Source: Vulcanimicrobiota bacterium
GTDB taxonomy: Bacteria > Vulcanimicrobiota > Xenobia > Xenobiales > JADMJV01
Length of the DNA: 64,000 bases
Reading direction: 5' to 3'
Assembly (NCBI GenBank): GCA_019637395.1
Contig: JAHBVR010000012.1
Location: 193,842-257,841, forward strand
The translations under genes were made by a program, and so were the position numbers. Below, one piece after another: positions 22,897 to 44,233 of this stretch. Every line of letters begins with the position of its first letter. The first letter of the stretch is position 1. The notes below the pieces were generated by a model, which did not search any database, was not told the DNA's origin, and saw nothing but the letters and a program-made list of their open reading frames with translations.

Positions 22897-23580
22897 ATGG
22901 AAAGAGCCGTACAGGCCATCATGGGAGGATCAACTAACATGGGTAGTATCAAGCCGTTCAATTCCAGCCAGGTGATCAAACCACTGGCGCGCACCTCGAT
23001 GTTTCTTCTCAATGAAGCTCGCGAAGCCGGAGAAAACGACCCTGCACTGGCCGTGCGTTTCACCGCCGGCGGTCTGGTTTCTCCCATTATGAGCGGAGTC
23101 AACACTCCTGGCGTGGCCGAATTCACCGACCACACTCTCGTCCCCATCGTGCGCGGTATGCTGCTGGGAGCCAATATCTATCGCATGCAGCGCACCTTTA
23201 AAAACCCTGACGCCCCGGCCTGGGAAAAGGGGGCCGACGTTGTTCGCGTCATCTCCGACACCGCGGGCCTCATCGGCGGCCTGGCCGTCCTCTTCACTCC
23301 GCAGTACGCCGCGTTGGGGGCCAAACTCATCGGCACAGCTTACTCGGTCGACATCTGCTCGCACGCCCTGCGCACCGGCTCCCACGTCAACAATCGCTTC
23401 AAAGTATGGAAGAACATGCTCGACGAAGAAAAGCCGGAGGACAAACCCCCGGGAGGCAACAGCCCCGGCCAGACCGGTTCGAACACTCCGCCTACCCCGC
23501 CAGTCCCACCCAAAATCAGTATCCATAAGCCATTAACCCAGTTTGAAAGCCCCAAGCAGCTTAATCTCTTCAAGAACTAA
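22897..23580 (+). CDS. Hypothetical protein with a Pro-rich C-terminus
   Basis: 227-aa ORF followed directly by a strong terminator. Confidence 0.5.
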   Translation: MERAVQAIMGGSTNMGSIKPFNSSQVIKPLARTSMFLLNEAREAGENDPALAVRFTAGGLVSPIMSGVNTPGVAEFTDHTLVPIVRGMLLGANIYRMQRTFKNPDAPAWEKGADVVRVISDTAGLIGGLAVLFTPQYAALGAKLIGTAYSVDICSHALRTGSHVNNRFKVWKNMLDEEKPEDKPPGGNSPGQTGSNTPPTPPVPPKISIHKPLTQFESPKQLNLFKN

Positions 23581-27581: not shown

Positions 27582-28739
27582 CTATGGTTCGAGCGCGAAG
27601 TCGCTCCGCAGGGCATCCATGCGCTCGCGCCAGCGCGCCTCCACCCGCGCTTTCTCGCGTTCCGGCAAGAAGCTGGAGCGAATGCCGTTGAGACTGATTT
27701 TCTCGAGATCCTGCAGGCTCAAGCCGCATTGTTCGGCCATGGCCAAGTACTCGCCGGTGAGAGTCAGGTCGAAGATATGGCGGTCGTCGGTGCTGATGGT
27801 GACGGGAATTCCCTGGTGGGCATAAGTCATGAGCGGGTAGGACTTGAGGTCTTTGACTACGTTGATGAGCAGATTGCTACTCGGGCACATCTCCAGGGTA
27901 GCCCGGCGGCGGGCAACTTCCTCAAGCACGGCCGGATCCTCGCCCAACCGCACGCCATGGCCGATGCGCTCGGCGTGACAGACTTCCAGAGCCTGGCGAA
28001 TGCTGTCCGGCCCCACGGCCTCACCGGCGTGGATGGTGATGTGCAGCCCCTGGCTCTGAGCATAGTCGAAGACTTCCTTGAACTTGGAGGCGGGATGATG
28101 AACTTCGTCGCCGGCCAGGTCCATGGCCACCACGCCCCGGTCTTTGCGCGCGGCCGCCGCCCGGGCCACGCGCATGGCCGACTCCAGCGGATAGCTGCGG
28201 TTTAGCGAGACGATCAGACGCGACTCGATGCCGTAATCTTCACTGGCCTGCTGCATTCCCTCGAGCACTGCGTCGAGCACGCCCTCGATGGACAGCACAT
28301 CCTCGCGCTTGACCGGGTTGATGCGAATCTCGCTGTAGACCACCCCCTCGCGCGCTTCTTCCTCGACCATCTCGTAGGCCACCCGCCGCAAGCTCTCGGG
28401 ATGGTCGAAAACAAAGCGGAAAGGGTCGAACTTCTTGAGAAAATCGAGCAGATTCTCGCCCGGGCGCATCTGGATTTTTTTCTTGAGTTCCTCGACATTG
28501 GCGGCGCCCAGCTCGATATTATAGACTTGCGCCAGTTCCAGAATCGTGTCAGGCCGAACCGCACCCTCCAGGTGCGTATGCAACTCTGTCTTAGGCATGT
28601 GCTCGACCAGTTGGCGAAAGGCGTCTTTGTCGAAGTAACGGGTGGAGGCGTCGCTACGAGCAGGATCACCAATTCGAAAGGAGGGCTCGGCCGAAGCCAA
28701 CAGCGTCAGAGCGAGGAAAAGGGCGGCGCAGGTTTTCAC
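27582..28739 (-). CDS. add: Adenosine deaminase family protein with an N-terminal signal peptide
   Basis: TELHTHLEGA (the HxH zinc motif), …SLNRS…, HAGE, and the C-terminal DD (TISTDD). Signal peptide MKTCAALFLALTLLASA. Confidence 0.82.
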   Translation of the reverse strand: MKTCAALFLALTLLASAEPSFRIGDPARSDASTRYFDKDAFRQLVEHMPKTELHTHLEGAVRPDTILELAQVYNIELGAANVEELKKKIQMRPGENLLDFLKKFDPFRFVFDHPESLRRVAYEMVEEEAREGVVYSEIRINPVKREDVLSIEGVLDAVLEGMQQASEDYGIESRLIVSLNRSYPLESAMRVARAAAARKDRGVVAMDLAGDEVHHPASKFKEVFDYAQSQGLHITIHAGEAVGPDSIRQALEVCHAERIGHGVRLGEDPAVLEEVARRRATLEMCPSSNLLINVVKDLKSYPLMTYAHQGIPVTISTDDRHIFDLTLTGEYLAMAEQCGLSLQDLEKISLNGIRSSFLPEREKARVEARWRERMDALRSDFALEP

Positions 28740-29537
28740 CTAAACCGGAGGTTTCTCCAAATGAGTCTGGTGCACGCACAGATCGGCGATCTTGCGCACC
28801 AGCGCGCCTACCAGGGGCACGGCGGCCATGGTTCCGCCCAGCGAAAGAAGGTTGTTCATGATACGCGACTTCAAAGTTTTGCCCTCGAACTGCTCGCGCT
28901 TGCCCTGGGCGCTCAGGCCTTCCCCCCACAGCTTGCCGGTGGCCCACTCGTAGGCAGCGCTGGTTTCACGGCGCTGGGTGCGGTTTTCTTGGACGCATGT
29001 ATAGACTTTGCGTAGATAGCCGGATTCGCCCAGACGATCGGGATCGATTTCCACCGAGGCGCCGGCATACATCAGATTAGCCCGATTAAATCCTGGAGTT
29101 TTTTCCGACATGGGAAACAGGCAGGCGCCGTCGGTTTCCACGCGCTTCTCAAAGCAATCGAAGCCCTTGGAAACTTCCTCCGGTTTGATGGCGGCGTAGC
29201 CATCCAGGTCCGAATTGGCGCCCAGACGGCCGCGCGAGAAACTGCCGGTCAGGTAAATTTTGCTGGGATAAGCAGGCAGTTCTTGCACATTCTCGAGCAA
29301 AGACCGCTGCAGCGCGTCAATGCGCGGCCCCACCTGCGCATCGGTAAAAGGCCTGGCCAGTTCGCGATCCACCTTGGACTGCCAGCGCGCCGACAACTGG
29401 TCGGAAGAACGGTGAGAAAGGTAAGTAGCCAGGTTCTCCTGCATCACTTCGTGCTGCTCGGCCGGCAGGCCGCGTTCTTTCATCAACTTGCCGGCATCAC
29501 GCCAATGCTGGTCCGGCCATTTGGTCTGGATTCTCAC
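28740..29537 (-). CDS. Nucleotidyltransferase-domain protein (Pol-beta superfamily, PF01909-like)
   Basis: LTGSFSRGRLGANSDLDGYAAI matches hG[GS]x9-13Dh[DE]h. Forms an ATGA overlap with the upstream His-box gene. The N-terminus reads MRIQTKW…. Confidence 0.65.
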   Translation of the reverse strand: MRIQTKWPDQHWRDAGKLMKERGLPAEQHEVMQENLATYLSHRSSDQLSARWQSKVDRELARPFTDAQVGPRIDALQRSLLENVQELPAYPSKIYLTGSFSRGRLGANSDLDGYAAIKPEEVSKGFDCFEKRVETDGACLFPMSEKTPGFNRANLMYAGASVEIDPDRLGESGYLRKVYTCVQENRTQRRETSAAYEWATGKLWGEGLSAQGKREQFEGKTLKSRIMNNLLSLGGTMAAVPLVGALVRKIADLCVHQTHLEKPPV

Positions 29538-30127
29538 TGGGGCATGCCCATCCGGGCCAGTTCAGCCGTCAACTGCTCTTCGCTGATCTTACCGAGAGCG
29601 AAGTTCTTGTAGGGTTCCACTTTCCAGGCGACCGGTTCGGCGCCGAGGGTATTGTAGATGGCCTTTTCCCACTTGGGCCAGAACTTGATTTTGTCGAGCG
29701 CCTTATTGCTCACGCCGATCAGACAATAGTCGGAATCGTGCGTGTTGGTGTGCCACTTGGTGTGCTTGAGAGTCTGAGCCTGGCTGCCGTAGTTGTCGCC
29801 CTTGTGATGCCACACGCCCGAAGCCAGGTCCATGGCCACGATGATGGCGCCCGCTCCCAAAGCGGTGATGGCGGCTCGGGTCAGTCCCACCGACAGGCTG
29901 CTCGAGGTGGCCAGATCGTAGCCAATCTTGGCCACCCCGGCCACTCCGACGGCGGCCGCGGCACCACGGGCGATTTTCTTGACCACGCGGTGAGCGGGCC
30001 GGGCTCCCGAAAACTCGACGGAATCGCTCTGTTCTTTGGGCTGCGGCTGGGGAGTGGTGGCGAACTTGTTGTAGCTGATCGTTACCTTCATGTTATTGTG
30101 CTGGATTTTCATCCGTCGATTCCCCAT
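29534..30127 (-). CDS. His-box membrane protein (short paralog of the 30109..31092 gene)
   Basis: Shares GVWHHKGDNYG and HTNTHDSDYCLIGVSNKALDKIKFWPKWEKAIY with its neighbour. The N-terminus carries the MKIQ / Pro-rich / SDSVEF module. Confidence 0.6.
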   Translation of the reverse strand: MGNRRMKIQHNNMKVTISYNKFATTPQPQPKEQSDSVEFSGARPAHRVVKKIARGAAAAVGVAGVAKIGYDLATSSSLSVGLTRAAITALGAGAIIVAMDLASGVWHHKGDNYGSQAQTLKHTKWHTNTHDSDYCLIGVSNKALDKIKFWPKWEKAIYNTLGAEPVAWKVEPYKNFALGKISEEQLTAELARMGMPQ

Positions 30128-31092
30128 TTCTCTTTGCGCATCGGCATCTCGGTGGCTTTGAAGCCCTTCATCATTTCTCGGGAACGGGCGATGTATTCTT
30201 CTTTGCTGATCTTGCCGTCCACGTAGTCCTTATATTCCGGGACATTCCAGGAGTCCGGCTTGGCTCCGGTGATTTTATAGATGGCCTTTTCGTAGCGGGG
30301 CCAGAACTTGATTTTGTCGAGCGGCTTGTTGAGATGGCCGGTGACGATGCAGTAATCGCTGTTCCAGGGCATGCGGTGGTGAACGCCGTGATTCTTGGGG
30401 TCGATGGCCAGGCCGGCTTTTTGGAGCAGTTTGCCGTGCTTGGGAACCTCGGTCTGCTTCATATGCGACCACTGGTGGAATTTACCGTAAACGCTCATAC
30501 CGCCGATGAGCCCGATGGCGCCGGCCAGGATGGGAGCGGGAGCCCCCAGAGCGGCGGCGCCGACCAGCGGGGCCCAGGCTACCGTGCTGAGCGGGAAGGC
30601 CCAGTAAGACAGGGAGTAGTGACCCAGTTTACCGGGGTGGAAGTGATGGCGCTGGGCCTGCTTGGCGAATTTGCGCACGAAACCGAGCTTGGCGTCGGGC
30701 TTGGCGTAGTTGTCGGCCCAGTGGTGCAGCAGCCCCGAGGGCAGGTCGGCCAGCACGTAGCCGGCGGCCAGAGCGCCGGTGGAGAGAGCGGCCGTTCCAA
30801 TGGCCGCGCCCAGCGTGGGGGCACCGGCCACGTCGGCGATGACTTTGGCGGCGCACCAGGCGCCGGAGGCGAGCACGCCGCCGAACATCAACTTCATAAA
30901 GGGGCTGCCTTCGGTATCCTTACCGGCGACACGCTTTTCTTGGAAGAATCCTTTGATGAGGCGCTGGCCCAAACCCAACTCCGGTTCTGGCCGGGAAGTC
31001 TCGAGCTGCACGCTGTCGGCGGCCGGGGCGGCCGGAGGAGCCGGCAGCAGTTTGGGCAGATTCGGTTGGCTGGGTACGCTCTGGATTTTCAT
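30109..31092 (-). CDS. His-box membrane protein, di-iron lipid desaturase/hydroxylase-like (CarF/FAD4/TMEM189-like, tentative)
   Basis: His clusters LLHHWADNY, HHFHPGK, HQWSHMK and HGVHHRMPWNSDYC, separated by hydrophobic Gly/Ala-rich helices. The N-terminus reads MKIQSVPSQPNLPKLLPAPPAAPAADSVQL. Confidence 0.6.
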   Translation of the reverse strand: MKIQSVPSQPNLPKLLPAPPAAPAADSVQLETSRPEPELGLGQRLIKGFFQEKRVAGKDTEGSPFMKLMFGGVLASGAWCAAKVIADVAGAPTLGAAIGTAALSTGALAAGYVLADLPSGLLHHWADNYAKPDAKLGFVRKFAKQAQRHHFHPGKLGHYSLSYWAFPLSTVAWAPLVGAAALGAPAPILAGAIGLIGGMSVYGKFHQWSHMKQTEVPKHGKLLQKAGLAIDPKNHGVHHRMPWNSDYCIVTGHLNKPLDKIKFWPRYEKAIYKITGAKPDSWNVPEYKDYVDGKISKEEYIARSREMMKGFKATEMPMRKEKWGIDG

Positions 31093-31168
31093 AGGCCAAA
31101 TTTACAACTCGTCAATGAAAAGTCCCTGAATTTATCCCTTCAGGCTTCTTTGAGGAGATTCGACTAAG

Positions 31169-31927
31169 TTGATAAGCGTGAAACTACAGCGACATAGTCC
31201 GCAAACGCCTCGTCCCCTACCCCCTCCCAAACCACCCGAACCCAACGACCCGGGCAGCCTCGTCGACCACGTGGGAGCTGTCCAATTGGGAGGCCTGCTC
31301 AGTGACCTGGGGATGGGGGCTGCCTACACCTTTGGCGCCTCCACACCCGTCAGCGGCCTGGGACTGGCCATGGCCGCCTTCCATGGCGCCCGCGGGGCCG
31401 CTTTTGGTGCTTTAGCCTTAAAGGAAAAAGAAGCGTTTAAACTTAAAGCTCGCATCGGTGTGGCCGCTTCGGAGGGCCTGCTGGCCGCCGGCCATGCCCT
31501 GGGAGCCCTGGGCGGGGGCGCCTGGAGCATCCCATTGCTGGCCGCCGGCGCCGGACTGAATGCCTTCACCGACTACAAATACCGCACCCACTTCGGAGTG
31601 GAAGCCCCGGCCAAAGGCCCGGTCAGCCCGGCCCGCATTGCGGGTGCAATGGTGGATGGCGCCCTGGGCGTTAGCTACGCCGCCGGCGCCTCTTCTTTAG
31701 GTCTGGTGGCCGGTGCCGGCCACCTTGGCGCCATGGTCGGCTACTACGGCGGCAGCCTCTGGAAACCCGAAATGAAGCATCACTGGCACAGTAAAGGTTT
31801 CGGCCACGCCCTGCTGGCCGCCGGCCACCTGGCCGGAGCCGCCGGGGCCGGCGCCTGGGTTCTGCCCGTGCTGGCTGGCGGGACTTTGATCACCACCCTT
31901 CAGGATTCGCGCCAGAACGCCAAATAA
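31169..31927 (+). CDS. Gly/Ala-rich glycine-zipper membrane protein with a Pro-rich N-terminus
   Basis: MISVKLQRHSPQTPRPLPPPKPPEPNDPGSLVDHVGAVQL, then GxxxG/AxxxA zippers and the His motif EMKHHWHSKGFGH. Confidence 0.55.
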   Translation: MISVKLQRHSPQTPRPLPPPKPPEPNDPGSLVDHVGAVQLGGLLSDLGMGAAYTFGASTPVSGLGLAMAAFHGARGAAFGALALKEKEAFKLKARIGVAASEGLLAAGHALGALGGGAWSIPLLAAGAGLNAFTDYKYRTHFGVEAPAKGPVSPARIAGAMVDGALGVSYAAGASSLGLVAGAGHLGAMVGYYGGSLWKPEMKHHWHSKGFGHALLAAGHLAGAAGAGAWVLPVLAGGTLITTLQDSRQNAK

Positions 31928-32112: not shown

Positions 32113-33261
32113 CTACTGACCCCACCCAAAAAAGTCGCGCATCTCCAAATACGTCTGCGGGTTCGAGAACAGCAGGCCGTGGTTGCGGTGGTGGCGGTCT
32201 TTCAAAAAGTGGGGTTTCTCGTCGCCGATCTGGAGGGAGTTGCCGGGCACGGTGCCGTCGCCGAGCACGGGGATGAAGTAGCGGCCCAGCGTCGGGCGGG
32301 AGTGGGAGCCGACCAGGCGCACCGCTTCGCTACGGGCCTTCTGGCTTTCCCAGCGTGAATTCAAGTCAGCCAGTTGAGGGTTGGCGGGGCCGCCGGTGAC
32401 GGGGCGCAGCCAGCCCAGCGCGTCGCGGTCGGCTTCGGTGATGGGTTTGCGCGAAAGCAGCCAGTTGGTATCCCAACCCCGACCGGCCAGATCCAGCAGT
32501 CCCAGCGAAGAACGAGCCAGCGCCGAGCCGCGATTGGGCGTGCCCAGCATCATGAACTTACCCACCTGGTCGCCGCCCTGATCCAAGTAGGTGCGCGTGG
32601 CCAGTCCGCCCATGGAATAGCCGACCACGTCGGCCTTGGGACTGCCGGTCAGGGCCGCGATGGCTTTCAAATCCCGCGCCAATTCGGGAGCAGACAGATT
32701 AGGCGGAGTATTCACCGAAGGGAACACGGCCACGAAAACCTTGCCGTCGGAGCGCACCTGCGAAGTCAAAATGCGCTCCTGGCAATCCAGATCAGCGAAG
32801 AACTCGCCGTCGCGCACATAGTAAACGCGCCCGCCGTTCTGACCGTTGGCGGTCAGCTTCTCGGCCAGATGATCAAAGCGATCCTCGGGAGTCTGCCAAC
32901 CCGGTACCAGCACCACCGGACGCTGAATGCGCGAGTCGGGTAAATCCTTCAGCAAAGTCGGGGGGAGCGGCTTTTTGATGGCGCCCAGCGACTCCCACCA
33001 GCCCATTTTCTGACCCAGGTGCTCCAAGCCCTCGCCCGCCTTGGAGAGCACCACCGCCAACGGCCCGCACAGGGCCATCAGAACCTTTGAGCCCAGGCCG
33101 GTGATGAAACGCGGCTTTTCCTCCAAAGTCGTCCAGGCGGGGGGACCTTTGGGCCCATTCGGACCACCGCCAATCTGAACGCTATCAGGCGAAGCGGGCG
33201 AAACAGACGGGCGAGGCGGCACAGGCGCCGAAAGAGGACGAAACGCGGACTGGATCTTCAC
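32113..33261 (-). CDS. Alpha/beta-hydrolase (lipase/esterase) carrying the MKIQ N-terminal module
   Basis: Nucleophile elbow VVGYSMGGLATR (GxSxG). The N-terminus MKIQSAFRPLSAPVPPRPSVSPASPDSVQI parallels that of the 30109 gene. Confidence 0.78.
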   Translation of the reverse strand: MKIQSAFRPLSAPVPPRPSVSPASPDSVQIGGGPNGPKGPPAWTTLEEKPRFITGLGSKVLMALCGPLAVVLSKAGEGLEHLGQKMGWWESLGAIKKPLPPTLLKDLPDSRIQRPVVLVPGWQTPEDRFDHLAEKLTANGQNGGRVYYVRDGEFFADLDCQERILTSQVRSDGKVFVAVFPSVNTPPNLSAPELARDLKAIAALTGSPKADVVGYSMGGLATRTYLDQGGDQVGKFMMLGTPNRGSALARSSLGLLDLAGRGWDTNWLLSRKPITEADRDALGWLRPVTGGPANPQLADLNSRWESQKARSEAVRLVGSHSRPTLGRYFIPVLGDGTVPGNSLQIGDEKPHFLKDRHHRNHGLLFSNPQTYLEMRDFFGWGQ

Positions 33262-41905: not shown

Positions 41906-44233
41906 TTGCACCCCCAAGAGAAGTTGCAGCCCGCCATGCGCCGCCACCTGATCTGGATGTTCATGCTCCTGTCTGCCTGGGCCTGGGCCGAACCGGCCAC
42001 GCTGCGGGTCGGCATTCTCAGCTTCGAGGATCCTCTCGATCTCTATAAAGACTTGCGCATTCAGTCCAAGGTACTGAAGAGAGCTCTCAACCTCACGCCC
42101 TCTTTCGCCATCGGCACCTACGGAGAACTGTTCCACTGGCTGGAGAACGACCTGATCGACGTGGCCGTCATCAACTCCGGTCAACTCTCGCGTCTGTCCC
42201 AGGAAGAGTGGCAATACATCGGGTCGGCCTCCACCACCGGCCATGAGCCCGCCTACCTTTCGGTGATTCTGACGCGCAAGAACTCCGGTCTGAACAACCT
42301 CACCGACGTCAAGGCAGCTGGAAGCCGGCTGCGTCTGCTGGCGGTCGATCCGCTCTCGGTGTCGGGCTTCATTTATCCTATTTCCGCCCTGAAGCAGAAC
42401 GGCCTGGAAGTTACTCCCGAACAGGTTCGTTTCAGCTATTCGCACAGCAACTCGCTGCGCTGGCTGGCCCAGGCCGACGGACCGGAGATCGCCTGTGTCT
42501 GGGCCTCCACCTGGGAGCGCAACCCCCATCCCGAGCTACAGGTCATCCAGGTGCCGGGACTGGACCAATACCACAGTTTGCCGGTCGCTCTGGTGGCCCG
42601 GCGCGGCGCTCCCACCACCCCTGGACTGGCCCGGCTGGTGGCTTCCGGCGGTTTCCCGGGATTTCAATACGATCCGGACTACATGCGCGAAATGAAAAAA
42701 ATCCCCGATACTCTGCCGGGCGCGCTGAACAGTCTGTACGGGCGTCCTCTCGACCGGGTGGGCCTGGATGATCTGGTCATGACCTTGCATCATTACAATC
42801 GGACCCACGACCGCCCGGCCCGCCTGGCGGTGGTGCTGGCCGGCGGCGGGGCCAAATGTTCCTACCAGGCCGGGGCCGTGCGCGCCCTGGAAGAGAGCCT
42901 GCAGACCTGGAGCAAGCGGCTGGACGACGATCAGTTGGAAATGCGCCTGGTGGTGGGCACTTCGGGCGGCGCCATCAACGCGCTCTCGGTGGCCATGGGG
43001 CTCACCTCCACAGCCGATGGCTACACGGCCTTGAGCAGCGCCTGGAGCGACCTGGATCAGAGCGAAATCATCTGTCCGCCCCTGGCCGTGCGCATCAACT
43101 TGTGGTGCTGGTTGGCCTGCGTCACCGCGCTGGTCATTCTGGCCATCAACTGGACCCTGCGACTGGGAAAACCGCGCTCCATGGTGCTGACGCTGCTGGT
43201 CGGCCTCGGCATGTATGGCGTTTCCCATCTGCCCCTGCGCATGTTCCTGGGTACTGACTCAAACATCCAGCACGTCTGGGCCTGGCTCTCCTGGGGCATC
43301 GAGGGCGCCGGGTTGGTGCTGGTGTTGGTGGCCGTCACCGGTTTCCTTACCCTGCGCCGCGACCGCCGCAGCCAGCGGGTGGTCCATCGGACCGGGGCGC
43401 TGGTGCGCCTGGCCATCGCCGGCGTCACCCTGCTGCCGCTGCTCCAGGCCTGGACGATCTTTTGCTATGAGGAAGTGGTTTCCGAGAATCGCGGGATCGA
43501 AAGGGCGCTGACCCGCAATTTCGGCCAGTTGATCCAACGCCAGTCGGGTGATTCCTCTCCGCTGGCGGGCCTGACCATCAAGCAACTCTCCCAGCGCGTT
43601 TTCGAGAAGAATCTGCTCAAGCGCGATCTGGTGCTGGCGGCCTCGCCTTTGACCGACCCGGAATTACAACTGCCGGGTGAAATGTATTTCTACGCTTCCC
43701 CCCTGAATTCACCGGAACCGGCTTTCGGCAACCGCGGCATCGCCCTGGTCAAACGTCCGGAACTCTTATTTGACGCGCTGCTGGGCAGCGCGGCCATCTA
43801 TCCCCTCTTCCCCGCGCGGACCATCCACGATTTGCCCAAAGCGGGCCAGAAAGTCGACCTGGTGGACGGCAGTTTCGCCCACCGCAGTCCCCTGGAACCG
43901 GCCGTGCTCTGGGGCGCCACCCATGTGCTGGTAATCGAAGCCTCCACCCTGGAGCCGACCGTCCGCGGGAACTTGCTCAACAATTTCGGGGCCTCCCTGA
44001 CCTACCTCTATGACGAAGCCCAATTGGTGGACGTGCGCCTGCGAGGACAAACGGTGCTTTACACCCTTTATCCGAGCGCTCCCCACATCGGATTACTGGA
44101 CTTTTCCCCCCATTTGATTCGCGCTTCCATCGATAAAGGCTACCGCGAGGCCTCGGGAGCTCCCACCTCGGCCTATCAAAAAGGCGGGGCTCTGCACAAA
44201 GAATTAGGCCCTCCGATCTTTTGGACTCCCTGA
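41906..44233 (+). CDS. Patatin-like phospholipase fused to an N-terminal PhnD/SsuA-like periplasmic-binding-like domain and a multi-TM insert
   Basis: Signal peptide, then TLRVGILSFEDP…DVAVINSG. Patatin motifs VVLAGGGAKCSYQAG (GGxK/R), GTSGG (GxSxG) and DGSFAH (catalytic Asp). Four hydrophobic helices in between. Confidence 0.78.
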   Translation: MHPQEKLQPAMRRHLIWMFMLLSAWAWAEPATLRVGILSFEDPLDLYKDLRIQSKVLKRALNLTPSFAIGTYGELFHWLENDLIDVAVINSGQLSRLSQEEWQYIGSASTTGHEPAYLSVILTRKNSGLNNLTDVKAAGSRLRLLAVDPLSVSGFIYPISALKQNGLEVTPEQVRFSYSHSNSLRWLAQADGPEIACVWASTWERNPHPELQVIQVPGLDQYHSLPVALVARRGAPTTPGLARLVASGGFPGFQYDPDYMREMKKIPDTLPGALNSLYGRPLDRVGLDDLVMTLHHYNRTHDRPARLAVVLAGGGAKCSYQAGAVRALEESLQTWSKRLDDDQLEMRLVVGTSGGAINALSVAMGLTSTADGYTALSSAWSDLDQSEIICPPLAVRINLWCWLACVTALVILAINWTLRLGKPRSMVLTLLVGLGMYGVSHLPLRMFLGTDSNIQHVWAWLSWGIEGAGLVLVLVAVTGFLTLRRDRRSQRVVHRTGALVRLAIAGVTLLPLLQAWTIFCYEEVVSENRGIERALTRNFGQLIQRQSGDSSPLAGLTIKQLSQRVFEKNLLKRDLVLAASPLTDPELQLPGEMYFYASPLNSPEPAFGNRGIALVKRPELLFDALLGSAAIYPLFPARTIHDLPKAGQKVDLVDGSFAHRSPLEPAVLWGATHVLVIEASTLEPTVRGNLLNNFGASLTYLYDEAQLVDVRLRGQTVLYTLYPSAPHIGLLDFSPHLIRASIDKGYREASGAPTSAYQKGGALHKELGPPIFWTP

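What the first reader, a model, noticed from the sequence alone, without database searches (positions are those of the whole stretch)
29534..31092. Tandem His-box membrane paralogs (di-iron desaturase/hydroxylase-like) next to a lipase
Both proteins contain HHW(A/K)DNY, HxxxH and HxxHH-type clusters between hydrophobic helices, the arrangement used by membrane di-iron lipid desaturases/hydroxylases (for example the CarF/FAD4/TMEM189 type). The short paralog looks like an internal-deletion derivative of the long one; both share …SDYC(L/I)…KIKFWP(K/R)(W/Y)EKAIY…. An alpha/beta-hydrolase lipase with the same N-terminal module is adjacent. This suggests a lipid-modifying cassette.
Basis: partly seen in the sequence, partly recalled or inferred. 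Interest (0 to 1): 0.55.

Follow-up and report, generated by a model that had tools for sequence, protein, structure and literature searches.

The report
CarF-family desaturase with truncated partner
This soil-type bacterium (phylum Vulcanimicrobiota) carries a membrane iron-dependent lipid desaturase gene of the plasmalogen/FAD4 enzyme family, followed by a shortened, catalytically crippled copy of itself and a nucleotidyltransferase gene; the enzyme family is known, but this conserved arrangement is not described in the papers I searched.

Summary
The long ORF (30109-31092, minus strand, 327 aa) is a full-length PF10520 protein (CarF/PEDS1/FAD4 family; 120 bits against a cut-off of 26.4). 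It has all eight family-wide His and the essential Asp, and these are invariant in 24 orthologs. The short ORF (true start 30112, 192 aa) is a paralog that lost about 103 residues. The lost part holds helices 3-4 and five of the eight His, so the short protein cannot build its own di-iron site.

The short gene is not a decaying remnant. Its dN/dS is 0.17-0.34 and four His plus one Asp are invariant. It overlaps the long gene's stop by ATGA, and it follows the long gene in 10 loci. In two lineages the two are fused into one polypeptide. A third gene, a novel Pol-beta-type nucleotidyltransferase, overlaps the short gene's stop by GTGA and usually accompanies the pair.

The long protein is neither CarF/PEDS1-type (NCBIfam 72 bits against 500; the ninth His is replaced by Tyr) nor FAD4-type. 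Its substrate is therefore unknown. The lipase neighbour is conserved only in the closest relative.

Best reading: a two-subunit membrane desaturase made of a catalytic protein and a pseudo-enzyme partner. This is a new variant of a known kind, of moderate interest.

The parts
30109..31092 (-). Long paralog, 327 aa. It is a complete PF10520 (CarF/PEDS1/FAD4-family) membrane desaturase-like protein: a 66-residue N-terminal leader, hydrophobic hairpin 67-115, His box region 123-150, hydrophobic hairpin 164-205, His boxes 206-239 and a C-terminal extension.
   Evidence: Pfam PF10520 at 120 bits, profile positions 1-175 of 175. Hydropathy. H123 H124 D127 H149 H150 H206 H210 H235 H238 H239 are invariant in 24 orthologs.
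30706..30726 (-). Codons for HHWADNY (H123-Y129). H123 corresponds to mouse PEDS1 H96 and D127 to D100.
   Evidence: residue roles from PMC8960569.
30643..30648 (-). Codons for H149-H150, corresponding to PEDS1 H121/H122.
30463..30477 (-). Codons for HQWSH (H206, H210), corresponding to PEDS1 H187/H191.
30376..30390 (-). Codons for HGVHH (H235, H238, H239), corresponding to PEDS1 H215/H218/H219.
30391..30699 (-). Segment of the long gene (residues 132-234: His box 2, helices 3-4, the HxxxH box) with no counterpart in the short paralog.
   Evidence: Paralog alignment.
29534..30112 (-). Short paralog, 192 aa. It has a leader, one hydrophobic hairpin (43-100), HHKGDNY, HTKWH and the shared C-terminal region. 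It is a degenerate PF10520 protein lacking five of the eight His.
   Evidence: PF10520 at E 5e-12 in two stretches. 14 orthologs with invariant H102 H103 D106 H117 H121 and an RPAHR motif. dN/dS 0.17-0.34.
30109..30112 (-). ATGA overlap of the long gene's stop with the short gene's start (translational coupling). The same overlap is present in L001 and L003.
28740..29537 (-). 265-aa Pol-beta-superfamily nucleotidyltransferase-like protein (G98-S99 ... D110-L111-D112) with a C-terminal hydrophobic helix. It is the third gene of the conserved module.
29534..29537 (-). GTGA overlap of the short gene's stop with the GTG start of the nucleotidyltransferase gene.
31178..31927 (+). Divergently transcribed 249-aa Gly/Ala-rich membrane protein (start GTG, MKLQ...). 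It contains KPEMKHHWHSKGFGH. It is conserved next to the long gene in L002 and L003. Function unknown.
   Evidence: No Pfam or NCBIfam hit.
31125..31144 (.). Inverted repeat CCTGAA-N8-TTCAGG in the 85-bp divergent intergenic region. The arms are conserved in L002 and L003 while the loop differs in L003. It may be an operator or a 5' hairpin.
32113..33261 (-). 382-aa alpha/beta hydrolase, lipase-like (GYSMG), with an MKIQS leader and one hydrophobic segment (52-79). It is a neighbour only in the closest relatives.
27582..28739 (-). Adenosine deaminase with a signal peptide. It starts on the base after the nucleotidyltransferase stop and is probably co-transcribed here. It is present in L001 and L002 but not in more distant loci, so it is not part of the conserved module.

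Best explanation
The long protein is an active member of the PF10520 family of membrane di-iron lipid desaturases. It has four predicted membrane helices. The complete ligand set of eight His plus the supporting Asp is expected on the cytoplasmic face, by analogy with CarF. It most likely uses O2 and two electrons from an unidentified donor to dehydrogenate a hydrocarbon chain of a membrane glycerolipid close to the glycerol end. Both characterised branches of the family act there: PEDS1/CarF at C1'-C2' of the sn-1 alkyl chain, and FAD4 at C3-C4 of the sn-2 16:0 chain. The long protein belongs to neither branch, so the substrate and product are unknown.

The short protein arose by tandem duplication of the long gene, followed by loss of helices 3-4 and five His ligands. 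It cannot form its own di-iron centre. It most likely serves as a non-catalytic partner subunit (a pseudo-enzyme) that assembles with the long protein in the membrane. The downstream Pol-beta-type nucleotidyltransferase belongs to the same module, and its role is unknown (regulation by nucleotidylylation, or action on the lipid head group).

Shown: family membership, ligand conservation, the deletion, purifying selection, gene coupling, the fusions and the synteny. Inferred: iron binding, desaturase activity, physical association of the two proteins, and any role of the nucleotidyltransferase.
For: 1. Family: PF10520 full length at 120 bits.
2. Ligands: all eight His that are essential in PEDS1/CarF, plus Asp100, are invariant in 24 orthologs down to 47% identity.
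3. Topology: two hydrophobic hairpins are placed as in the four-helix topology of CarF.
4. The short protein retains only the equivalents of H96, D100, H215 and H219. It is nevertheless constrained, with dN/dS 0.17-0.34 against 0.08-0.32 for the long gene and 46 invariant columns in 14 orthologs.
5. Coupling: the ATGA overlap is conserved in L001 and L003.
6. Synteny: long followed by short is found in the window, L001, L002, L003, L005, L006, L007/P0039, L008, L009 and L011.
7. Fusions: long and short form one polypeptide in P0002/L002 and, with an unrelated linker, in P0010.
8. Precedent: purified CarF ran at roughly dimer size (PMC8960569), so an oligomeric state is known for the family.
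9. Nucleotidyltransferase: GTGA overlap, conserved downstream position, invariant GS...DxD motif and a confident Pol-beta-core model.
Against: 1. There is no direct evidence that the two proteins touch. The AlphaFold2 model of the natural fusion was uninformative (pLDDT 60, pTM 0.40).
2. One lineage has the long gene alone (L004 = L010). One locus has short plus nucleotidyltransferases without an adjacent long gene (L015). The short protein may therefore be tied to the nucleotidyltransferase as much as to the long protein.
3. No electron donor (cytochrome b5, ferredoxin, reductase) is consistently nearby.
4. The equivalent of PEDS1 Phe118, whose mutation left 6% activity, is Ala here.
5. No lipid data exist for this lineage.
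Confidence: 0.55

Rival explanations
1. The long protein is an ortholog of CarF/PEDS1 and makes plasmalogens (vinyl-ether lipids) from plasmanyl-ethanolamine.
For: It belongs to the same Pfam family and has the same eight His and Asp. NCBI names a related Vulcanimicrobiota protein 'fatty acid desaturase CarF family protein'.
Against: The NCBIfam CarF equivalog model scores 72 bits against a cut-off of 500. The His specific to functional PEDS1/CarF (mouse H131) is an invariant Tyr in this clade, and the neighbouring His of the window protein is not conserved. Homologs lacking that His (plants, Alphaproteobacteria) did not complement carF (PMC9131029). Of the 149 representative hits scanned, 82 have Arg at this column (FAD4-like) and only 15 have His. 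No ether-lipid genes (AGPS, FAR, ElbD-like) appear among the window genes scanned against Pfam.
Confidence: 0.1
2. The long protein is a FAD4-like enzyme that makes a trans-delta-3 double bond in the sn-2 acyl chain of phosphatidylglycerol.
For: Outside its own phylum-level group, most of the closest representatives are FAD4-like R-type proteins. Like FAD4, it lacks the PEDS1-specific His.
Against: It lacks the Arg and the PWTIT-x-R signature of that group. Identity to those proteins is only about 30-35%. FAD4 is a thylakoid-associated function.
Confidence: 0.12
3. The short ORF is a decaying duplicate with no function of its own.
For: It lost about 103 residues, including five metal ligands.
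Against: dN/dS is 0.17-0.34. There are 46 invariant columns across 14 orthologs down to 44% identity. The ATGA coupling is conserved. The order long then short is kept across roughly 50% sequence divergence. It is retained in frame in two kinds of fusion.
Confidence: 0.03
4. The short protein works mainly with the nucleotidyltransferase, for example as its membrane anchor or substrate. It sits next to the desaturase gene only because it arose there.
For: L015 has short, then nucleotidyltransferase, then a second nucleotidyltransferase, with no long gene upstream. The GTGA overlap joins short to nucleotidyltransferase in the window. The nucleotidyltransferase has a C-terminal hydrophobic helix.
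Against: Long plus short occur without a nucleotidyltransferase in the P0039 contig. The fusions join short to long, not to the nucleotidyltransferase. Solo nucleotidyltransferase paralogs exist (L013, L014).
Confidence: 0.15
5. The leader-bearing genes (lipase, Gly/Ala-rich protein, long, short, nucleotidyltransferase) form one lipid-remodelling cassette. Their products would be sorted or exported through the shared M-x-I-Q N-terminus.
For: Six window genes start M-[KR]-[IL]-Q (P about 4e-10), and five of them lie within 4.6 kb. Position 3 is Ile in 58 and position 4 is Gln in 44 of about 84 homologs of three unrelated families.
Against: The lipase is a neighbour only in the window and L002. 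A leader profile finds no homology beyond the long protein. No secretion machinery is linked to the cluster. A di-iron desaturase needs cytoplasmic electron donors.
Confidence: 0.08

Closest known systems
CarF / PEDS1 (TMEM189), plasmanylethanolamine delta-1'-desaturase
   Same: The PF10520 domain is matched end to end. The eight essential His and Asp100 are conserved. The two hydrophobic hairpins fit the four-helix topology. Purified CarF runs as a dimer-sized species.
   Different: The CarF equivalog model scores far below its cut-off (72 against 500 bits). The ninth, PEDS1-specific His is replaced by Tyr, and the Phe118 equivalent is Ala. The long protein has an HH doublet in box 1, a 66-residue N-terminal leader and a 45-residue C-terminal extension. 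It comes with a truncated paralog and a nucleotidyltransferase, neither of which appears in the CarF/PEDS1 papers I read.
FAD4 (plant/algal phosphatidylglycerol 16:0 trans-delta-3 desaturase)
   Same: Same Pfam family. It also lacks the PEDS1-specific His. FAD4-like proteins dominate the nearest representatives outside the Vulcanimicrobiota group.
   Different: The window protein has no Arg at the diagnostic column and no PWTIT motif. It is a bacterial protein with no thylakoid context, and it has the paired truncated paralog.
Di-iron enzymes paired with a ligand-deficient paralog, such as yeast ribonucleotide reductase Rnr2-Rnr4 and the alpha/beta subunits of soluble methane monooxygenase (from my own knowledge, not tested here)
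   Same: A catalytic di-iron subunit is accompanied by a homologous subunit that has lost metal ligands but is retained as an obligatory partner.
   Different: Those are soluble four-helix-bundle proteins. Here both proteins are membrane proteins of an unrelated fold, and their association is inferred only from gene coupling and fusion.
Minimal Pol-beta nucleotidyltransferases (MntA-type antitoxins, Sulfolobus 2rff, aminoglycoside and lincosamide nucleotidyltransferases)
   Different: Only about 95 of 265 residues align. The rest of the confident model has no solved counterpart. It has a C-terminal hydrophobic helix, no HEPN partner, and no Pfam family above threshold.

Membership tests
PF10520 Lipid_desat (CarF/PEDS1/FAD4 superfamily) - long protein | Profile match above Pfam's gathering score over the whole domain | tested here: met
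   120 bits against 26.4; profile positions 1-175 of 175.
PF10520 Lipid_desat - long protein | Eight family-wide His (mouse PEDS1 H96, 121, 122, 187, 191, 215, 218, 219) and Asp100 | tested here: met
   H123, H149, H150, H206, H210, H235, H238, H239 and D127 are invariant in 24 orthologs and align with reference-type sequences.
PF10520 Lipid_desat - long protein | Four membrane helices with the His residues on one side | tested here: inconclusive
   Hydropathy shows two long hydrophobic hairpins (67-115, 164-205) in the expected places. Sidedness was not tested, and the structure model was poor.
PF10520 Lipid_desat - long protein | Binds two iron ions and desaturates a lipid | not testable with these tools
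   Needs protein purification, metal analysis and lipidomics.
PF10520 Lipid_desat - short protein | Eight family-wide His | tested here: not met
   Only the equivalents of H96, H215 and H219 (plus D100) remain. The equivalents of H121, H122, H187, H191 and H218 are absent in all 14 orthologs. The short protein is a homolog (PF10520 at E 5e-12) but not a competent enzyme.
CarF/PEDS1 plasmanylethanolamine desaturase (NCBIfam NF045946 equivalog) | Score at or above the curated equivalog cut-off | tested here: not met
   72 bits against a cut-off of 500.
CarF/PEDS1 plasmanylethanolamine desaturase | Ninth His (mouse H131 / CarF H113), present in functional PEDS1 and absent from FAD4 | tested here: not met
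   The column holds an invariant Tyr (Y159). The adjacent H158 of the window protein is N, K or D in other clade members.
CarF/PEDS1 plasmanylethanolamine desaturase | Genome also encodes alkyl-ether lipid synthesis (AGPS with FAR/GNPAT, or ElbD) | tested here: inconclusive
   Pfam scans of the window genes show no AGPS, FAR or ElbD-like gene, but only 64 kb of the genome is available, so the genome as a whole could not be assessed.
FAD4-type desaturase | Arg at the H131 column within a PW(T/A)IT-x-R motif | tested here: not met
   The window clade reads HPGKLG(H/N)Y there.
Pol-beta superfamily nucleotidyltransferase - third gene | hG[GS]-x9-13-Dh[DE] motif on an alpha/beta core | tested here: met
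Bacterial lipase (family I / class 2) - 32113-33261 | Alpha/beta hydrolase with a GxSxG nucleophile elbow and similarity to characterised lipases | tested here: inconclusive
   GYSMG is present. The best PDB relatives are Pseudomonas, Burkholderia and Bacillus lipases at E 3e-7 to 2e-4, over about 80-125 residues only. All Pfam hits fall below their cut-offs.

The most novel reading that the evidence does not exclude
Long protein, truncated paralog and nucleotidyltransferase together form a previously undescribed three-component membrane lipid-modifying machine specific to Vulcanimicrobiota (Eremiobacterota). In it, the pseudo-desaturase subunit bridges the di-iron enzyme and a nucleotidyl-transferring enzyme. 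The invariant N-terminal M-x-I-Q tag, followed by a Pro/Ser/Thr-rich linker of variable length, would be a new lineage-specific assembly or sorting signal shared by all components and by neighbouring membrane proteins.
Probability: 0.15. Interest if true: 0.65.

Novelty: new variant of a known kind. Interest (0 to 1): 0.42.

Why it matters
PF10520 enzymes make two unusual lipids: plasmalogens, and trans-delta-3 phosphatidylglycerol. In the reviewed literature, bacterial members are said to be confined mainly to myxobacteria, with a few in Leptospira and Alphaproteobacteria. This finding adds a third, sequence-distinct bacterial branch in a barely cultivated phylum whose polar lipids are largely unidentified.

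The branch consistently comes with a ligand-deficient paralog that is sometimes fused to it. If the pair is an obligate hetero-oligomer, it would be the first such pseudo-enzyme partnership I am aware of for a membrane di-iron desaturase. The natural fusion might also be a convenient construct for structural work, since no member of the family turned up in the PDB by sequence. The practical consequence for annotation is that the short gene should not be called a desaturase.

Tried and rejected
1. AlphaFold2 model of the natural fusion P0002, to look for a long-short interface. MAFFT would not place the long and short homologs on their own halves (A3, A4, A6). Only A5 could be used, which is deep for the short half alone. 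The result was pLDDT 60 and pTM 0.40, so it was uninformative and was not searched against structure libraries.
2. The afdb50 fold library was unavailable.
3. Sequence and profile searches of the PDB for the desaturase found nothing. The nucleotidyltransferase profile gave only sub-threshold hits, including DrrA at E 0.26.
4. A profile of the N-terminal leaders of long-protein homologs retrieved only the window's long protein from a six-frame translation. The 'same N-terminal module' is therefore a short motif plus similar composition, not a demonstrable homologous domain.
5. A double-glycine leader reading of ...VQ(L/I)GG was considered and dropped. The register does not fit, the motif is not conserved in distant orthologs, and I noticed no C39 peptidase transporter among the scanned genes (inspection).
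6. PADLOC defence models gave no hit for the cluster, apart from the adenosine deaminase domain.
7. The promoter and terminator scan gave counts at chance level.
8. The genome and metagenome scans returned only 4 and 5 loci, so the synteny statistics rest on about 12 independent loci.
9. A horizontally acquired island was considered. GC content is flat at 0.60-0.62 across the region.
Full report
**What is there**

The stated interval holds two minus-strand ORFs, 30109-31092 (327 aa) and 29534-30127. The DNA reads GGATGAAAATCCAG at the junction. The TGA stop of the long gene therefore overlaps an ATG that opens MKIQHNN.... The 192-aa product from that ATG (30112) is 100% identical over its full length to an NCBI-annotated protein of a 'Candidatus Eremiobacteraeota' MAG (P0028).

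The short gene's TGA in turn overlaps the GTG start of a third gene, 28740-29537 (CAGTGAGAATCCAG). An adenosine deaminase gene with a signal peptide starts on the very next base. Codon-position GC supports all of these as real genes.

Relatives place the window in Vulcanimicrobiota/Eremiobacterota. L001 is a Vulcanimicrobiota MAG at 84% identity. L002 is isolate SZAS-1 EREM-KAN-1 at 79%. P0006 is from 'bacterium SCN 62-11' at 94%.

**Family of the long protein**

Pfam PF10520 (Lipid_desat, the CarF/PEDS1/TMEM189/FAD4 family) matches residues 112-282 over the whole profile at E 1.5e-34 (120 bits, cut-off 26.4). No other Pfam His-box family matches at E up to 1.

Mutagenesis in the literature defines eight His as essential in all members (mouse PEDS1 H96, H121, H122, H187, H191, H215, H218, H219). 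It also defines an essential Asp100, a ninth His (H131) found only in functional PEDS1/CarF, and Phe118 (PMC8960569 and PMC9131029).

In an alignment of 24 orthologs reaching 47% identity, H123, H124, D127, H149, H150, H206, H210, H235, H238 and H239 are invariant. An alignment with database sequences of the His-type and Arg-type branches puts these residues on the eight universal His and the Asp. I added a human TMEM189 sequence recalled from memory to that alignment as a lead only. It fits the His-type group and the published numbering.

Hydropathy gives two long hydrophobic hairpins (67-115 and 164-205) that flank and precede the His clusters. This matches the four-helix topology established for CarF.

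**Which branch**

The long protein is not a CarF/PEDS1 equivalog. NCBIfam NF045946 scores 72 bits against a curated cut-off of 500.

At the diagnostic column the clade has an invariant Tyr (Y159). The adjacent His158 of the window protein is Asn, Lys or Asp in other members. The Phe118 equivalent is Ala.

It also lacks the Arg and the PWTIT motif of FAD4-like proteins.

An exhaustive HMMER search of 1.84 billion cluster representatives with the natural fusion P0002 found 1330 relatives at E up to 1e-3, but only 13 below 1e-30. One representative stands for the long clade (P0025) and one for the short type (P0043). About a dozen proteins at 31-38% identity form a surrounding group. The one member of that group whose cluster carries a source name is from Vulcanimicrobiota (P0054/P0246, which NCBI names 'fatty acid desaturase CarF family protein'). 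Of the 149 hits I scanned by motif, 82 have Arg and 15 have His at the diagnostic column.

The gene thus represents a distinct branch centred on this phylum. Homologs lacking the ninth His did not replace CarF in M. xanthus, so plasmalogen synthesis is not the default prediction.

**The short protein**

It matches PF10520 at E 5e-12 in two stretches, at the beginning and the end of the profile. Aligned to the long protein, residues 132-234 of the long one are replaced by eight residues. That segment holds His box 2, helices 3-4, the HxxxH box and the following loop. What remains is a leader, one hydrophobic hairpin, HHKGDNY, HTKWH and the shared C-terminal region. HTKWH is the remnant of HGVHH with its middle His changed to Trp.

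Only the equivalents of H96, D100, H215 and H219 survive. Five of the eight His are missing in all 14 orthologs. The short protein cannot hold a di-iron centre by itself.

Its closest non-short relatives are the long clade (median 63.5 bits). The surrounding group scores 48.5 and other PF10520 proteins 36.

**Not a pseudogene**

Nei-Gojobori dN/dS between the window and four relatives is 0.17-0.34 for the short gene. It is 0.08-0.32 for the long gene and 0.05-0.18 for the third gene. dS is near saturation for the distant pairs.

Fourteen short orthologs down to 44% identity share 46 invariant columns. These include H102, H103, G105-G109, H117, T118, W120, H121 and an upstream RPAHR motif.

**Linkage**

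The ATGA overlap is kept in L001 and L003. The gaps are 4-10 nt in L005 and L006.

Long followed by short occurs in the window, L001, L003, L005, L006, the P0039 contig/L007, L008, L009 and L011.

In L002 and P0002 the two are one 529-531-aa polypeptide. In P0010 (65% identity) they are fused through an unrelated linker. Because each part has an even number of membrane helices, the fusion keeps both soluble parts on the same side (my inference).

There are exceptions. One lineage has the long gene alone (L004 and the identical L010). L015 has short, then nucleotidyltransferase, then a second nucleotidyltransferase, with no long gene upstream.

**The third gene**

All 45 homologs are unnamed and carry no precomputed Pfam domain. 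Of the 41 homologs scanned, 38 match PF01909 weakly. G98-S99-x10-D110-L111-D112 is invariant or nearly so.

A hydrophobic C-terminal helix suggests membrane association.

The gene follows the pair in L001-L003, L005 (a two-domain 561-aa form), L006 (two genes), L008 and L009. It is absent after the pair in the P0039 contig. It occurs alone in L013 and L014.

**The lipase and the 'cassette'**

The 382-aa protein at 32113-33261 is an alpha/beta hydrolase with a GYSMG elbow. Its nearest solved relatives are family I bacterial lipases (E 3e-7), and its Pfam hits are below threshold. A divergent gene for a Gly/Ala-rich membrane protein (31178-31927) separates it from the long gene.

The lipase is a neighbour only in the window and L002. 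In L003 a glycerophosphodiester-phosphodiesterase-like ORF (my reading of its sequence, not scanned) occupies the corresponding place. More distant loci have unrelated neighbours. The Gly/Ala-rich gene is kept in L002 and L003. Pfam scans of the window genes showed no ether-lipid or fatty-acid synthesis genes.

**The shared N-terminus**

Six window genes begin M-[KR]-[IL]-Q: the lipase, the Gly/Ala-rich protein, long, short, the nucleotidyltransferase, and a second Gly/Ala-rich protein at 14968-15843. The tripeptide's internal frequency predicts 0.08 such starts (P about 4e-10).

Over about 84 homologs of the long, short and nucleotidyltransferase families, position 3 is Ile in 58 and position 4 is Gln in 44. 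The following Pro/Ser/Thr/Ala-rich linker varies from about 4 to about 45 residues. In the fusions the internal copy of the tag is lost.

A leader profile does not detect the other proteins. The DSVQ match between the lipase and the long protein arises in 2.3% of shuffles. The tag is real but unexplained. It is a short N-terminal motif, not a shared domain.

**Mechanism and verdict**

The long protein is most likely an O2-dependent di-iron desaturase acting near the glycerol end of a membrane lipid, with substrate unknown. The short protein is most likely its non-catalytic partner. I infer this from the translational coupling, the conserved gene order, the two kinds of fusion, and the dimer-sized behaviour of purified CarF. 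The attempt to model an interface failed. L015 keeps open the reading that the short protein serves the nucleotidyltransferase.

The papers I searched and read on PF10520 do not mention a truncated paralog partner, and the 2025 survey of GTDB genomes does not mention Eremiobacterota. I rate this a new variant of a known kind, with moderate interest.

Noticed in passing
window 33261, 31178, 31092, 30112, 29537, 15843 (gene starts): Six genes start M-[KR]-[IL]-Q, followed by a Pro/Ser/Thr-rich stretch. The same M-x-I-Q start recurs in homologs of three unrelated protein families from this phylum, with linkers of about 4 to 45 residues. It may be a lineage-specific N-terminal tag of unknown function.
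   Followed up: partly
window 31125-31144: Inverted repeat CCTGAA-N8-TTCAGG in the 85-bp divergent intergenic region between the long gene and the Gly/Ala-rich gene. The arms are conserved in L002 and L003, and the loop differs in L003. It could be an operator or an RNA hairpin.
   Followed up: partly
window 31178-31927 (+): 249-aa Gly/Ala-rich membrane protein with a conserved KPEMKHHWHSKGFGH motif. It has no Pfam or NCBIfam family and is kept head-to-head with the long gene in L002 and L003.
   Followed up: partly
window 14968-15843 (-): 291-aa protein with the MKIQ leader, followed by extremely Gly/Ala-rich hydrophobic segments. It has no family match.
   Followed up: no
L013 6001-6777; L014 6001-6825: Solo paralogs of the nucleotidyltransferase-like gene lie next to an SNF2-family helicase gene (immediately downstream in L014). 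L013 comes from the same assembly as L002. The nucleotidyltransferase family is therefore multi-copy and not restricted to the desaturase locus.
   Followed up: partly
L015 5405-7733: A short-type PF10520 gene is followed by two nucleotidyltransferase paralogs, with no long desaturase gene upstream; an HI0933-like flavoprotein gene lies there instead.
   Followed up: partly
window 27582-28739 (-): Adenosine deaminase (TIGR01430, 320 bits) with an N-terminal signal peptide, so it is probably exported. Its GTG start directly abuts the stop of the nucleotidyltransferase gene.
   Followed up: no
window 41906-44233 (+): 775-aa protein that combines a periplasmic phosphonate-binding-type domain with a patatin-like phospholipase domain. 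This is an unusual pairing.
   Followed up: no
window 22897-23580 (+) and L002 17720-18502 (-): Conserved protein of unknown function (…MGSIKPFNS.QVIKPLART…) with no family match.
   Followed up: no
window 54045-56577 (-): A run of three genes whose products start with pilin or pseudopilin-like hydrophobic N-termini (for example GMTLIELMV). It lies next to a 1938-aa bacterial alpha-2-macroglobulin gene (56763-62579).
   Followed up: no
window 30334-31167 (+): A 277-aa antisense ORF covers most of the long gene. The sense ORF is the one matched by Pfam and by homologs, and long antisense ORFs are common in GC-rich DNA, so this one is probably not a gene.
   Followed up: partly
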